From Bacillota bacterium (lineage in GTDB: Bacteria; Bacillota; Clostridia; Peptostreptococcales; Anaerovoracaceae), in contig JAFRYQ010000060.1 of assembly GCA_017437565.1 (NCBI GenBank), positions 1 through 43,236 of the forward strand: a stretch of 43,236 bases of DNA. Direction: 5' to 3'. Under the pieces are notes generated by a model that searched no databases, had not been told where the DNA came from, and worked only from the letters and a program-made list of their open reading frames with translations. Position 1 is the stretch's first letter, and each line of letters starts with the position of its first letter. Below, piece after piece: positions 18,311 to 43,097 of the stretch. The translations under genes were made by a program, and so were the position numbers.

Positions 18311-18397
18311 AGCAAATCAATCCTTTCCGTTTTATTGCCTTATCCGACAAGCCGGCATCCTTCTGCCTGCGCGTGGGGATGGTCTACGGGATTTTAT

Positions 18398-18406
18398 ATT
18401 ATACCA
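18398..18406 (-). promoter_or_regulatory. Extended -10 promoter for gdpP-rplI-dnaB
   Basis: TGGTATAAT ~90 nt upstream of gdpP; no clear -35. Confidence 0.55.
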
Positions 18407-18553
18407 CAACAGAAGAAGAAAATCGTGATGATTTTATGATTCCCTGGAAATCCCTGAGGTCTTACACGTCTCCCTCACAGTTCTTATGATTGGAATGCTT
18501 ATTATCATTCATTTTTCAACGTTTTATACAACTTAAGCTTCCTGTTTCCCCAT

Positions 18554-18594
18554 AAAAAACGCCCTCCTCCTGTTGATGACAGAGAAAGGCGTTT
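18554..18594 (-). terminator. Terminator after parB
   Basis: aaacgcc...ggcgttt imperfect stem with T run on the minus strand. Confidence 0.65.
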
Positions 18595-18600
18595 CGCTAT

Positions 18601-18616
18601 CGTTTCACGTGAAACA
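18601..18616. promoter_or_regulatory. parS site
   Basis: cGTTTCACGTGAAACA, 15/16 to TGTTNCACGTGAAACA, just downstream of parB. Confidence 0.9.
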
Positions 18617-18620
18617 TGCC

Positions 18621-34650: not shown

Positions 34651-37143
<2,493 letters not shown>

Positions 37144-37548
37144 ATGGATACGCTGAAATTTGTCATTCCCGGAAAGCCGGAATACATGACGATGGTCCGT
37201 CTGGCGACCGGCGCGCTGGCCGCTAAGGCGGGATTTACGCTGGATGACGCGGAAGACGTGAAAATGGCGGTGGCGGAAGCCTGTAAGAACGTTTCCTGCC
37301 ACGGCCAGGAGGGCTACAGCGATAAATACGAGATCGAATGCAATATCGACCACGGCTTTTTCGAAGTGACGGTCATCGACGCCTGCGACCATCATTCGCT
37401 GGAAAAAGTAAGCCCCCAGTGCCGCAACTGCCCGCAGGAAGGGGACATCGGTTTTATCATGCTCCGCTCGCTCATGACCTGCGTTGAACTCGGTCACGAC
37501 GATCAGGGCCACAAGTTTATCACGATGGTGAAGAAAGAACAGAGATGA
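37144..37548 (+). CDS. RsbW/SpoIIAB-like anti-sigma factor (HATPase_c_2 fold), degenerate and Cys/His-rich
   Basis: IPGKPEY...VRL...G.A...GF..DD.EDVKMAVAEAC.N...H and LRSLM..VE match RsbW; overlaps the sigma factor start. Confidence 0.82.
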   Translation: MDTLKFVIPGKPEYMTMVRLATGALAAKAGFTLDDAEDVKMAVAEACKNVSCHGQEGYSDKYEIECNIDHGFFEVTVIDACDHHSLEKVSPQCRNCPQEGDIGFIMLRSLMTCVELGHDDQGHKFITMVKKEQR

Positions 37549-38288
37549 CAGACCAGGAACTGTTTGAACGTTACAAACAAGATCCCTCGCCCGAGAACCG
37601 TAACGCCATCGTCGAGAAAAATCTCTATATGGTGGATATCCTGATTCGGAAATATCTCGGGAAGGGCGTGGATTACGACGATCTCTATCAGATCGGCGCG
37701 CTGGCTCTCGTCTCCGCGGTGGAACGCTTTGATCCGTCGAAAGGCTATGAGTTCAGCTCTTTTGCCACGCCTACCATCCTCGGGGAGATCAAGAAATATT
37801 TCCGCGACAAGCAGTGGAGCCTGAAGGTACCGCGGCGGCTGAAGGAGATCGCCGCCAAGGTACAGGAGGTCAGCGATAATTTCTACGCGGAAAACCAGAG
37901 GAGCGCGACGGTCGCCGAGATCGCCCAGCTCACCGGCTTCACGGAGGAGCAGATCATCGAGGCCATCGACGGCTCCCACGCCTACGGCACCTATTCGCTG
38001 GATAAGACTTTTGACGATGCCGGCGAAGACGGGGAGAACGCCTTTCTGGAAAAGTATACCGGTTTCGACGAGGCGGGTTATGCCGAAATCGAGACGGCGG
38101 AGATCATCGACAAAGTCGTCGGTAAGCTGAGCGATCAGCATAAGTATATTTTCCGGGAACGTTTCCTGAATAACCGGTCCCAGTCCGAGATCGCGAAAGA
38201 ACTGGGCGTTTCCCAGATGACGGTTTCCCGGGCGGAAAAAAGCATCGTAGCCAAGTTCCGCGCGGAACTGGCCGGAAAGAGCGCCTAA
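37545..38288 (+). CDS. sigB: SigB/SigF/SigG-family sigma factor, most like SigB
   Basis: YDDLYQIG, AVERFDPSKGYEFSSFATPTILGEIKKYFRDK.WSLKVPRRL, SQSEIAKELGVSQMTVSR. Confidence 0.85.
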   Translation: MTDQELFERYKQDPSPENRNAIVEKNLYMVDILIRKYLGKGVDYDDLYQIGALALVSAVERFDPSKGYEFSSFATPTILGEIKKYFRDKQWSLKVPRRLKEIAAKVQEVSDNFYAENQRSATVAEIAQLTGFTEEQIIEAIDGSHAYGTYSLDKTFDDAGEDGENAFLEKYTGFDEAGYAEIETAEIIDKVVGKLSDQHKYIFRERFLNNRSQSEIAKELGVSQMTVSRAEKSIVAKFRAELAGKSA

Positions 38289-41435: not shown

Positions 41436-43097
41436 TTGAGCAATCAGGCAATCAAACGGATCATCGGCATCAGCGCGGCGGCACTTCTGGTAGTCGCCAT
41501 CTTGGCGTTCCTCTATGCCGGCGCGGGCGTTTCCCGCAGCGAGGCTTTGGCGGCAGCCCGGGAACAGGTGCCGGCTGCCGCGGAAGAAACGGAGATCGAA
41601 AAGCGTGGCGGCCGCTACGAGGTCGGATTTTACGACGCGGAGGCGGCAATGCGTTATCTGGTCACCGTCGACGGCAAGAGCGGCGCGGTGATCCGTGTCA
41701 CCGGCGAGCGCGAGCAGGCCCGGGGCAGCCGGTCCGTCCGTTTCAGCGAGGAAGACGCCTTGCGCGCGGTGCGGACAGCTTTTCCCGGCGCGGCGGATCT
41801 CCATACGGGTCTGATTTTCAATCAAAGCCGTTATTATTACCGTCTCACTTTCAGCGGGGATGGTTTCTATGGATATGCGGAGCTCGACGCGGAAGACGGC
41901 AAGCTCCTGTGTTATGGCATCTTCTACGGAAATGACGCGGTCATCCCGCTCGATGAGACCGTGATCGTGGCGGAAGACGCGGCAGGCGGGCAGGACGCGG
42001 CCGGGGATGAGGCGGCGTCGGCGGAAGCAGGGAATGAGCCGGCGGGAAACGATCCTTCTCAGGAGATCGCCCTGCTCACGGAAAAAGAAGCCCGGGCCGT
42101 GATTGCGAAAAAGGATGCCAAGGCCGAAGTGACGGAGATCCGCCTCGGGCAGCGTGAAGGCCGCAACGTCTACCAAGGCCAGGCGACTTCCGGGTCCCGG
42201 CTTTTCGCTTTTACCATCGATGCCGAAACCGGGAAGCTCCTGCAGTGGGAGGAAGTGGACTCTTCGTCCGGCGGGAGCACGTCCGGGGGGAACGCTTCCG
42301 GTTCCGGACCGGCGGGGACGTCCGGACAGGATAAAGACGCGGATGGCGATACGAAAGACGACACGGATGGCGACGGGAATGGCGACGCGTCCGATAAGGC
42401 CAGCGACGGTTCCGGCAGCAGCGGGGACGGGAATAACAGCGGCGGTGCCGATAGCAGTAGCGGGGACAGTAATAGCAGCGGCGGTTCCGATGATAGCGGA
42501 TCCGGCAGTTCGTCCGGTGATTCCGGCGACAGCACCGGTGCCCGCCTGATCTCCGAAGGAGCGGCGATCGCCGCCGTCCAGGCGAAAGCTCCCGACGCGG
42601 TCATCACCCGGATCTATCTTTCGGAAGAAGACGGCAGCTATTTCTACCGCGGCACGGCCCGGCGCGGCAATTATATCTGTTATTTCGGGGTCAATGCGGT
42701 GACCGGCGTCCTGGTGATCTGGGATGAGGAACCGGCTGACCAAACCGACCCGGAGGATCCTGCCGACCCGGAGGATCCTGCCGACCCGGAGGAGCCAACG
42801 GATCCGGATGACCCGTCTGATCCTTCCAACCCGGATGAGCCTGTGGATCCTGGCGAGCCTGTGGACCCGATTGATCCTGTTGATCCTGGCGAGCCGACTG
42901 ATCCGGACGATCCGGTTGATCCCAACGAACCGTCTGACCCCTCCGAACCGTCTGACCCGTCCGACCCGGATGAGCCAACAGATCCTTCTGAACCGTCTGA
43001 CCCCTCCAATCCGGGTGATCCGGCCGTCCCGACTGAGCCGGTCGATCCCTCCGATCCTTCCGACCCGACCGACCAGACCTTTCCGTCCAATTCTTAG
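41436..43097 (+). CDS. Exported protein with four PepSY-like domains, a Ser/Gly/Asp linker and an Asp/Pro/Glu repeat tail
   Basis: TTG start after GGAGGG; N-terminal hydrophobic helix; four repeats beginning (S/T)..(E/D/A)A and ending VDGKSG, LDAEDG, IDAETG, VNAVTG. Confidence 0.85.
   Translation: MSNQAIKRIIGISAAALLVVAILAFLYAGAGVSRSEALAAAREQVPAAAEETEIEKRGGRYEVGFYDAEAAMRYLVTVDGKSGAVIRVTGEREQARGSRSVRFSEEDALRAVRTAFPGAADLHTGLIFNQSRYYYRLTFSGDGFYGYAELDAEDGKLLCYGIFYGNDAVIPLDETVIVAEDAAGGQDAAGDEAASAEAGNEPAGNDPSQEIALLTEKEARAVIAKKDAKAEVTEIRLGQREGRNVYQGQATSGSRLFAFTIDAETGKLLQWEEVDSSSGGSTSGGNASGSGPAGTSGQDKDADGDTKDDTDGDGNGDASDKASDGSGSSGDGNNSGGADSSSGDSNSSGGSDDSGSGSSSGDSGDSTGARLISEGAAIAAVQAKAPDAVITRIYLSEEDGSYFYRGTARRGNYICYFGVNAVTGVLVIWDEEPADQTDPEDPADPEDPADPEEPTDPDDPSDPSNPDEPVDPGEPVDPIDPVDPGEPTDPDDPVDPNEPSDPSEPSDPSDPDEPTDPSEPSDPSNPGDPAVPTEPVDPSDPSDPTDQTFPSNS
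42748..43071 (+). repeat. Imperfect 9-bp-period repeat encoding (D/E/N)-P-x triplets
   Basis: DPEDPADPEDPADPEEPTDPDDPSDPSNPDEPVDPGEP... Confidence 0.9.

What the first reader, a model, noticed from the sequence alone, without database searches (positions are those of the whole stretch)
37144..38288. SigB module with no adjacent RsbV and a Cys/His-rich, apparently kinase-dead RsbW: candidate metal/redox-sensing anti-sigma switch
Seen: the RsbW-like ATG directly follows the gyrA stop (TAA-ATG) and its end overlaps the sigB start, leaving no room for an anti-anti-sigma, and no STAS gene is in the window. In the 134-aa protein the N-box survives (E45-A-C-K-N49), but G1 D-x-G-x-G/S reads D79-A-C81-D-H83-H84, G2 reads EGDIG, and the ATP-lid region carries C93-x-x-C96. 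It has 7 Cys (47,52,66,81,93,96,113) and 6 His. Established: RsbW is a GHKL kinase that phosphorylates RsbV, and Clostridioides difficile has rsbV-rsbW-sigB just downstream of gyrA. Inference: the nucleotide pocket has become a Zn or Fe-S site (C52/C81/C93/C96), so oxygen or thiol stress could release SigB directly without partner switching, a ZAS-like mechanism on a GHKL fold.
Basis: partly seen in the sequence, partly recalled or inferred. Interest (0 to 1): 0.85.

Follow-up and report, generated by a model that had tools for sequence, protein, structure and literature searches.

The report
Stress-sigma switch collapsed to one metal-site anti-sigma
In a large group of gut and oral anaerobes the three-protein phosphorylation switch that controls the stress sigma factor SigB has lost two of its proteins, and the remaining inhibitor has traded its ATP site for an invariant cysteine/histidine set that likely binds a metal and would let it sense oxygen or thiol stress directly.

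Summary
In 151 genomes of the family (likely Anaerovoracaceae), 103 have an rsbW-sigB locus, nearly all beside gyrA. 41 keep rsbV and intact kinase motifs, and 40 of these also carry a PAS-PP2C phosphatase. The other 62 have no RsbV orthologue, no phosphatase orthologue and broken kinase motifs. A main clade of 51, this genome included, keeps C52, H53, C93 and C96 in 51 of 51 at 42% mean identity. C81 (15/51) and N49 (21/51) are not conserved, which corrects the proposed ligand set. Thirteen near-complete genomes of this clade have no STAS domain at all. A predicted RsbW-SigB complex passes (0.66, best control 0.01), possibly from likeness to solved structures. SigB-type promoter motifs precede peroxide-, thiol- and Fe-S-stress genes in several rsbV-less relatives, but are not enriched in this genome. 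Best reading: a kinase-dead anti-sigma with a likely Cys3His metal site that would release SigB on oxidation (0.55). Metal, clustering and release are untested. No paper (9 searches) or earlier scan note on this DNA describes it.

The parts
37144..37548 (+). RsbW-like GHKL-fold anti-sigma, kinase-dead (RsbW*), 134 aa
   Evidence: kinase motif set broken in 62/62 rsbV-less and 0/93 rsbV-positive loci
37189..37263 (+). Residues 16-40 (helix 1 to start of helix 2): predicted SigB-binding surface
   Evidence: interface list
37297..37302 (+). C52-H53 at the end of the N-box helix; likely metal ligands (C52 new, H53 ancestral)
   Evidence: 51/51 in the main clade; helix 33-51 in the model
37378..37395 (+). 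Degenerate G1 box, D79-A-C-D-H83-H84 (G83 lost; C81 and H84 partly conserved)
   Evidence: G83 14/51 against 41/41 and 52/52; C81 15/51; H84 32/51
37420..37434 (+). C93-x-x-C96-P in the former ATP lid, just before helix 98-110; likely metal ligands
   Evidence: C93 and C96 51/51, CxxCP 48/51; DSSP
37438..37452 (+). Degenerate G2 box E-G-D101-I-G (first Gly of GxG replaced by D/N/E)
   Evidence: G101 0/51, D/N/E 50/51; G in 41/41 and 52/52 controls
37545..38288 (+). SigB-type sigma factor, 247 aa, start overlapping the rsbW* stop
   Evidence: TIGR02980 230 bits against cut-off 234, TIGR02941 next best; tree with the order's SigB
34651..37143 (+). gyrA; rsbV sits between gyrA and rsbW in rsbV-positive relatives and is cleanly absent here
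   Evidence: gyrA-rsbW gap 326-584 nt in 40 rsbV-positive loci, -38 to 167 nt in 46 of 47 main-clade loci
18311..18620 (-). 310-nt gap downstream of parB where rsbV-positive relatives carry the PAS-PP2C (RsbZ-like) phosphatase; absent here
   Evidence: parA/parB labels recalled from sequence, not from a family scan

Best explanation
RsbW* is a kinase-dead anti-sigma factor whose lineage lost both RsbV and its PAS-sensor phosphatase, and it is predicted to hold SigB through its first helices while a likely metal site (C52, H53, C93, C96) in the old ATP pocket would be disrupted by oxygen, peroxide or thiol stress and so release SigB onto likely oxidative-stress promoters. Shown: motif loss, the triple co-occurrence, the invariance of the four residues. 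Predicted: fold and SigB contact. Inferred: metal binding (Zn about 60%, Fe-S about 35% if a metal is bound), coupling of the lid site to SigB release, and oxidation as the signal.
For: Co-loss: RsbV orthologues (over 115 bits) in 41 of 151 genomes, each with a copy beside rsbW (one locus is split over two contigs), none in the 62 rsbV-less ones. PAS-PP2C orthologue (over 330 bits) in 40 of those 41 and 0 of 62. Kinase motifs broken in 62/62 against 0/93. No STAS domain of any kind in 19 of 50 main-clade genomes, 13 of them at least 90% complete, one a single-contig 1.1-Mb genome, so a partner switch cannot be the general route. C52, H53, C93 and C96 invariant at 42% mean, 22% minimum identity. 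The model puts C96-P97 at the start of helix 98-110, where G2 lies; short strands at 57-58 and 86-87 suggest the lid packs on the loop after C52/H53; lid pLDDT is 87 against 70-78 for a kinase-intact relative, and the lid is unresolved in apo RsbW crystals (PMC7340262 passages). Complex score 0.66, best of 3 controls 0.01; the mark was reached by 116 of 157 solved and 2 of 215 mismatched pairs (rough here); runs share at least 45% of contacts; partner pLDDT at least 62. SigB-type motif upstream of reverse rubrerythrin in 14/24 rsbV-less, 10/15 rsbV-positive and 1/21 sigB-less genomes. Genome-wide counts 104 against 55 for a spacing control in 30 rsbV-less genomes, and 25 against 26 in 23 sigB-less ones. 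Downstream genes include AhpC, thioredoxin, NifS and CysK, like the C. difficile SigB regulon (PMC7494833 section 8 part 1). The lost phosphatase carries C-x9-C-x2-C in its PAS domain in 16 of 20.
Against: No coordinates were available, so Cys clustering was not measured, and one search reports no Zn contacts. The predicted SigB interface (residues 16-40) does not include the Cys site, so release needs allostery or unfolding. The complex pass may come from likeness to SpoIIAB-SigF (1L0O) and 8JZT. Most zinc anti-sigmas use zinc structurally (PMC4598750 passage). Three rsbV-positive, kinase-intact RsbWs also have C52+C93+C96, so the set does not by itself mean a replaced switch. Eleven other rsbV-less genomes lack the full set (C52+C93 in 10 of 11, all three Cys in 2 of 11). 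G054 keeps sigB with no rsbW, and a C. difficile rsbW deletion is fit (PMC10210984 passages), so tight control is dispensable. In this genome the motif is not enriched at 16-17 nt (2 and 2, against 1-5 at other spacings), and its reverse rubrerythrin lacks the motif. The motif was defined after viewing the promoters. Independent pairs on supported branches number only 2.
Confidence: 0.55

Rival explanations
1. The Cys3His site is a purely structural zinc that staples the lid and replaces ATP as a fold stabiliser; SigB is released by another route, such as regulated proteolysis of RsbW* or an unknown non-STAS antagonist.
For: Most zinc anti-sigmas use zinc structurally (PMC4598750). The lid is unresolved without nucleotide in RsbW. 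The SigB interface is away from the Cys site.
Against: No clade-specific gene lies beside the locus: the downstream gene is the same trpS-like gene in most rsbV-positive and rsbV-less loci (label recalled). C-terminal tails vary, with no evident shared degradation tag. The likely regulon is redox-centred. A genome-wide search for a co-gained gene was not possible.
Confidence: 0.25
2. RsbW* has no release switch: it is a constitutive buffer or stabiliser of SigB on a path of decay (rsbV-rsbW-sigB, then rsbW*-sigB, then sigB alone, then none).
For: All four states occur in the family: G054 has sigB alone, and 47 of 48 further family genomes searched show no SigB orthologue. C. difficile lacking rsbW is fit and has less SigB (PMC10210984). 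Residues of the predicted SigB interface are less conserved in the main clade (0.59) than in rsbV-positive RsbW (0.81).
Against: Four invariant residues across a deep 51-genome clade, plus new conserved K48, K88 and D/N/E101, argue for an acquired function rather than decay. The lower interface conservation tracks the clade's overall divergence (0.57 against 0.71).
Confidence: 0.12
3. RsbW* still binds a nucleotide or other small ligand in a remodelled pocket and acts as an energy or metabolite sensor, with the cysteines as a side feature.
For: E45 (47/51), D79 (43/51) and H53 (51/51) persist, and K48 and K88 are new conserved basic residues. Nucleotide state controls SpoIIAB partner choice (PMC7340262 passage).
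Against: N49, G83 and G101 are lost, and G101 is an acidic or amide residue at the phosphate loop in 50/51. The model extends helix 98-110 over G2.
Confidence: 0.05
4. A STAS protein encoded elsewhere (such as the 98-aa STAS on contig C220, or the PP2C module on C67) acts as the anti-anti-sigma, as in mycobacteria.
For: This genome has a stand-alone STAS with a Ser motif and a PP2C/STAS-HATPase module. Kinase-dead anti-sigmas with separate kinases are known (PMC7693655).
Against: These score 50 and 37 bits on the RsbV profile against over 115 for orthologues, and similar weak STAS hits occur in sigB-less genomes. Both genomes of the same genus and 11 other near-complete main-clade genomes have no STAS.
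Confidence: 0.03

Closest known systems
RsbZ-RsbV-RsbW-SigB partner switch of Clostridioides difficile (and RsbU/P-RsbV-RsbW-SigB of Bacillus subtilis; structure 6M36)
   Same: Same fold (Z 17.6, rmsd 2.0 to 6M37), orthologous gyrA-linked locus, SigB-type sigma, predicted binding via helix 1, similar promoter motif and likely oxidative-stress regulon.
   Different: RsbV and the PP2C phosphatase are absent genome-wide, kinase motifs are broken, and an invariant C52-H53/C93xxC96 set is gained. [quoted passage not shown]
RsrA-SigR of Streptomyces coelicolor and other ZAS anti-sigmas
   Same: Proposed logic: a Cys3His metal site in an anti-sigma, oxidation releasing a sigma factor, thioredoxin in the likely regulon (PMC4598750 passages).
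   Different: GHKL fold, not the ASD helical bundle; no HxxxCxxC motif; group-3 SigB bound via region 3, not an ECF sigma; redox switching untested here.
Mycobacterial UsfX/RsbW1-SigF with RsfA/RsfB
   Same: Kinase-dead RsbW-fold anti-sigma (PMC7693655 passages; 8IH8 and 8JZT fold hits); redox input through cysteines exists in that system.
   Different: There the redox cysteines are on the anti-anti-sigma RsfA, STAS antagonists remain, and a separate kinase acts. Here no STAS partner is needed and the cysteines are on the anti-sigma.

Membership tests
RsbW/SpoIIAB anti-sigma kinases | GHKL (HATPase_c_2) fold | tested here: met
   Pfam E 2e-16; model pLDDT 93.5, best fold hits RsbW and SpoIIAB
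RsbW/SpoIIAB anti-sigma kinases | Intact N, G1 and G2 nucleotide motifs | tested here: not met
   H83 for G, D101 for G; motif set broken in 51/51 of the clade; below NCBIfam RsbW cut-offs
RsbW/SpoIIAB anti-sigma kinases | Binds the cognate sigma via helix 1 of the dimer | tested here: inconclusive
   Predicted complex 0.66 against control 0.01, interface residues 16-40; a like complex is solved, so the pass may be from memory
RsbW/SpoIIAB anti-sigma kinases | Kinase activity on an anti-anti-sigma | not testable with these tools
   needs an assay; no substrate orthologue found
Partner-switching system (PP2C-RsbV-RsbW-SigB) | RsbV anti-anti-sigma in the genome | tested here: not met
   0 of 62 rsbV-less genomes have an orthologue; 13 near-complete main-clade genomes have no STAS; own genome is 81% complete but the locus is contiguous
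Partner-switching system (PP2C-RsbV-RsbW-SigB) | Cognate PP2C phosphatase | tested here: not met
   PAS-PP2C orthologue in 40/41 rsbV-positive and 0/62 rsbV-less genomes; its site beside parB is empty in the window. That it is the cognate phosphatase is inferred from co-occurrence.
SigB-type group-3 sigma factor | SigB/F/G family match and orthology to the order's SigB | tested here: met
   TIGR02980 230 bits (cut-off 234), Sigma_B the next best model; syntenic with rsbV-rsbW-sigB loci and in one tree with them
SigB-type group-3 sigma factor | SigB-type promoters upstream of stress genes | tested here: inconclusive
   Enriched in rsbV-less relatives but not in this genome; motif defined post hoc
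ZAS (zinc anti-sigma, RsrA type) | HxxxCxxC motif | tested here: not met
   absent here; 2 of 51 in the clade
ZAS (zinc anti-sigma, RsrA type) | ASD helical fold and ECF partner | tested here: not met
   alpha/beta GHKL model; partner is SigB-type
ZAS (zinc anti-sigma, RsrA type) | Bound zinc released on oxidation, freeing the sigma | not testable with these tools
   needs biochemistry; one search reports no ligand contacts

The most novel reading that the evidence does not exclude
RsbW* is a one-component oxygen sensor: an Fe-S cluster held by C52, C93, C96 and H53 or D101 sits where ATP was, its loss in oxygen frees SigB, and SigB turns on the NifS system and peroxide defences that reset it. 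Sensing moved from the Cys-PAS domain of the lost phosphatase onto the anti-sigma, with related Cys sites arising in more than one rsbV-less lineage.
Probability: 0.22. Interest if true: 0.88.

Novelty: new variant of a known kind. Interest (0 to 1): 0.72.

Why it matters
RsbV and RsbW are described as always accompanying SigB (PMC10210984), and the signal and receptor for SigB in C. difficile are stated to be unknown (PMC11481553). Here a natural experiment removes the phosphorylation arm several times within one family. If RsbW* is redox-switched, it is a new way to build a direct-sensing anti-sigma, from a GHKL kinase pocket, and it gives a two-protein system in which the SigB signal of anaerobes can be tested in a tube. 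Cultured members exist ([Eubacterium] infirmum, E. sulci, E. saphenum). The analysis also points to a Cys-PAS phosphatase as the likely sensor in the rsbV-positive relatives.

Tried and rejected
Distal RsbV: rejected. Assembly artefact or rsbV remnant: rejected by bridging contigs and short gyrA-rsbW gaps. C81, C47, C66 and C113 as core ligands: rejected by conservation. Published C. difficile consensus scan of the own genome: 31 strict matches with no clear redox set; refined scans gave motif-like sites before Hsp20, Hsp90, NifS, an HMA protein and an Rrf2 regulator, but no spacing enrichment, so I do not count them as support. Desulfoferrodoxin, flavodiiron and classical rubrerythrin upstream regions in this genome gave no clean match. 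Independent-pairs tests were too few to be significant (2 pairs on supported branches). The careful SigB tree did not finish, so the quick tree was used. No viral relatives. ESM Atlas gave only HATPase_c_2 clusters. RNA-run contigs cover parts of rsbW and sigB but cannot show expression. Cys distances could not be measured because no model coordinates were available. Alignment A1 left out the 11 rsbV-less proteins outside the main clade and some near-duplicates; counts come from the full set. Four spoIIAB loci and three loci without an RsbW hit were dropped from the family count, and G092 (50 repeat-like hits) was dropped from the motif count.

Full report
OBSERVATION. The sequence is as described. 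gyrA ends at 37143, a 134-aa ORF starts at 37144, and its stop overlaps the start of a 247-aa sigma factor at 37545-37548. The small protein is HATPase_c_2, nearest to RsbW but well below the NCBIfam RsbW cut-offs; the sigma is SigB/F/G-type with SigB the best single model. The model (pLDDT 93.5) matches B. subtilis RsbW best (Z 17.6), then SpoIIAB and UsfX. Contigs of two other gut metagenome runs bridge the gyrA-rsbW-sigB junctions. The best DNA holders are gut metagenomes, several from goat, cattle or sheep. Named relatives are Clostridiales Family XIII/Anaerovoracaceae, [Eubacterium] infirmum, E. sulci and E. saphenum, so the family is likely Anaerovoracaceae (inferred).

FAMILY SURVEY. 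Of 151 genomes drawn from the family, 109 matched the protein. I read 110 loci from them and kept 103 genomes with an rsbW-sigB locus, nearly all beside gyrA; four loci were spoIIAB and three had no RsbW hit. Forty-one have rsbV between gyrA and rsbW; 62 do not. In the 62 the gap to gyrA is short, while it is 326-584 nt where rsbV is present. An RsbV profile finds orthologues (over 115 bits, next hits 60 or less) in those 41 genomes only. A Pfam STAS search of 61 rsbV-less genomes found nothing in 24. In the main clade that is 19 of 50, 13 of them at least 90% complete, including both genomes of this genus. This genome's own STAS proteins (C220, C67) score 50 and 37 bits and belong to other modules. 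In 53 loci from the 11 other families of the order, 52 are canonical rsbV-rsbW-sigB, so the rsbV-less state is derived.

CO-LOSS OF THE PHOSPHATASE. rsbV-positive genomes carry a PAS-PP2C gene downstream of parB. Its profile, built from 20 rsbV-positive genomes, finds orthologues (over 330 bits) in 42 genomes: 40 of the 41, plus two incomplete genomes with no sigB locus found, and 0 of 62 rsbV-less genomes. In the window that position is a 310-nt gap. Sixteen of 20 have C-x9-C-x2-C in the PAS domain. That this is the cognate RsbZ-like enzyme is inferred from co-occurrence.

MOTIFS. The set N49, D79, G83, G101, G103 is intact in 41/41 family and 52/52 outgroup rsbV-positive proteins and broken in 62/62 rsbV-less ones. 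A quick SigB tree (119 rows) puts 50 rsbV-less rows in one clade (SH-aLRT 99) and needs 5 changes of the label, at least 2 forced by supported branches. In the main clade (51 proteins, 42% mean identity) C52, H53, C93 and C96 are invariant. N49 is kept in 21, G83 in 14, G101 in 0 (D/N/E in 50), C81 in 15, H84 in 32; K48 and K88 are new conserved residues. C81 looked conserved among the closest homologues (73 of 75) only because that set is shallow. C47 is ancestral. Against a simple story: C52+C93 occur in 10 of 41 rsbV-positive proteins and all three Cys in 3, and the 11 rsbV-less proteins outside the main clade have C52+C93 in 10 but all three in 2. The cysteines seem to precede the loss, but independent pairs are too few for a test. 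A profile search of 1.84 billion representatives returned 17 hits at E up to 1e-30, all with the CH and CxxC pattern, so the type is a compact group.

STRUCTURE. In the model C52/H53 end helix 33-51, C96-P97 precede helix 98-110 that now covers G2, and two-residue strands at 57-58 and 86-87 suggest the lid packs against the loop after H53 (the pairing is my inference). Lid pLDDT is 87 against 70-78 in a kinase-intact relative, with alignments of different depth (86 and 41 rows). The lid is unresolved in apo RsbW crystals (PMC7340262, passages). Distances could not be measured. A complex of two RsbW*, SigB 85-247 and two Zn scored 0.66 against a best control of 0.01. The mark was reached by 116 of 157 solved and 2 of 215 mismatched pairs (rough here); runs share at least 45% of contacts and partner pLDDT is at least 62. 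The interface is RsbW* 16-40 on SigB 110-142. Like complexes are solved, so the pass may be from memory, and no zinc contacts were reported.

REGULON. Upstream of reverse rubrerythrin a TGTTT-N16/17-GGTA motif, close to the C. difficile SigB consensus (PMC7494833, passage), occurs in 14/24 rsbV-less, 10/15 rsbV-positive and 1/21 sigB-less genomes. The motif was set after viewing the data. A matrix trained on rsbV-positive sites only gave 15 bits or more in 9/24 against 1/21. Genome-wide, the 16-nt form against a 12-nt control counts 104/55 in 30 rsbV-less, 94/50 in 20 rsbV-positive (G092 dropped) and 25/26 in 23 sigB-less genomes; against the reversed pattern the controls are 73, 52 and 26. 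Kin are not independent. Of 23 sites in five rsbV-less genomes, 13 precede a gene: AhpC, thioredoxin, NifS and CysK pass NCBIfam cut-offs, ferritin scores below its cut-off, one is reverse rubrerythrin, rubredoxin and a 4Fe-4S protein are recalled labels, and five are unrelated. This resembles the C. difficile regulon (PMC7494833 section 8 part 1). Against: this genome shows no spacing enrichment and its reverse rubrerythrin lacks the motif; G015 of the same genus gave no redox target.

MECHANISM. Shown: loss of RsbV, phosphatase and kinase motifs together, and four invariant potential ligands. Predicted: fold and SigB binding. Inferred: a Cys3His metal site replaces ATP as what orders the lid, and oxidation of it frees SigB (0.55). 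Zinc is somewhat more likely than Fe-S from the CxxCP plus Cys/His pattern (my judgement). Rivals: structural zinc with release by proteolysis or an unknown antagonist (0.25); constitutive buffer in decay (0.12; G054 has sigB alone, and C. difficile tolerates rsbW loss); ligand-sensing pseudokinase (0.05); distal STAS (0.03).

KNOWN AND NEW. It is an RsbW orthologue by fold and synteny but fails the kinase and partner-switch tests. It would work like RsrA but is not a ZAS protein (PMC4598750, passages). Kinase-dead RsbW-type anti-sigmas are known in mycobacteria, with STAS antagonists kept (PMC7693655, passages). [quoted passage not shown] Nine searches of the open-licence library (listings, with passages or a section of six papers read) found no description of an rsbV-less, cysteine-site RsbW. 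Subscription papers and supplements were not seen. Earlier scan notes had nothing on this sequence; word search gave other kinase-dead RsbW systems that keep a kinase or STAS partner (unchecked).

VERDICT. Real, widespread in one family, apparently undescribed: a new variant of a known kind, with a plausible but untested direct-sensing mechanism. Interest 0.72.

Noticed in passing
L170-L189 (e.g. L186:602-1699), downstream of parB in rsbV-positive genomes: A 365-390 aa PAS-PP2C phosphatase with C-x9-C-x2-C in the PAS domain (16 of 20) tracks rsbV almost perfectly; likely the RsbZ-like sensor of the family and possibly itself a metal or Fe-S sensor.
   Followed up: partly
L119, L122, L123, L125, L127-L129: A second rsbV-less clade (7 genomes, SH-aLRT 100) with a different remodelling: C52 and C93 in 7 of 7, H53 and C96 lost, G2 replaced by a P-x-D-P motif.
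   Followed up: partly
L341:1492-2223 (G054): gyrA followed directly by sigB, with neither rsbV nor rsbW: an apparently unregulated SigB.
   Followed up: partly
L067, L085, L089: Kinase-intact RsbWs in rsbV-positive genomes that already carry C52-H53 and C93xxC96: possible dual-input intermediates.
   Followed up: partly
L132:698-1108 (G036): Apparently recent independent rsbV loss: N-box and G2 intact, G1 replaced by a segment with two adjacent Cys; genome 77% complete.
   Followed up: partly
L263:1486-1866 (G242, another family): Orphan, degenerate, Cys-poor rsbW after two small genes and before a secA-like gene (label recalled), with no rsbV or sigB hit.
   Followed up: no
G092, many contigs: 50 copies of the SigB-like motif, many near contig ends: possibly a repeat or mobile element carrying a SigB-type promoter.
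   Followed up: no
L011:5512-8912 and L001:1429-2353 (G000 C67, C220): Sigma-less partner-switch parts: a membrane PP2C next to a STAS-APH kinase-HATPase fusion, and a stand-alone STAS next to a 204-aa protein with no Pfam hit.
   Followed up: partly
L356 upstream (G000:C218, before 2022): The SigB-like motif before Hsp20 overlaps a CIRCE-like half-site (recalled), hinting at dual HrcA and SigB control.
   Followed up: no
window 41436-43097 (-): 553-aa secreted-looking protein with repeated domains and a long Pro/Asp/Ser-rich tail, no Pfam hit, upstream of a response regulator and histidine kinase pair.
   Followed up: no
L277:1321-1857 (G000:C111): This genome's reverse rubrerythrin is 91% identical to that of sigB-less G121 and has a sigma-A-like promoter, unlike most of the clade: possible replacement by transfer.
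   Followed up: partly
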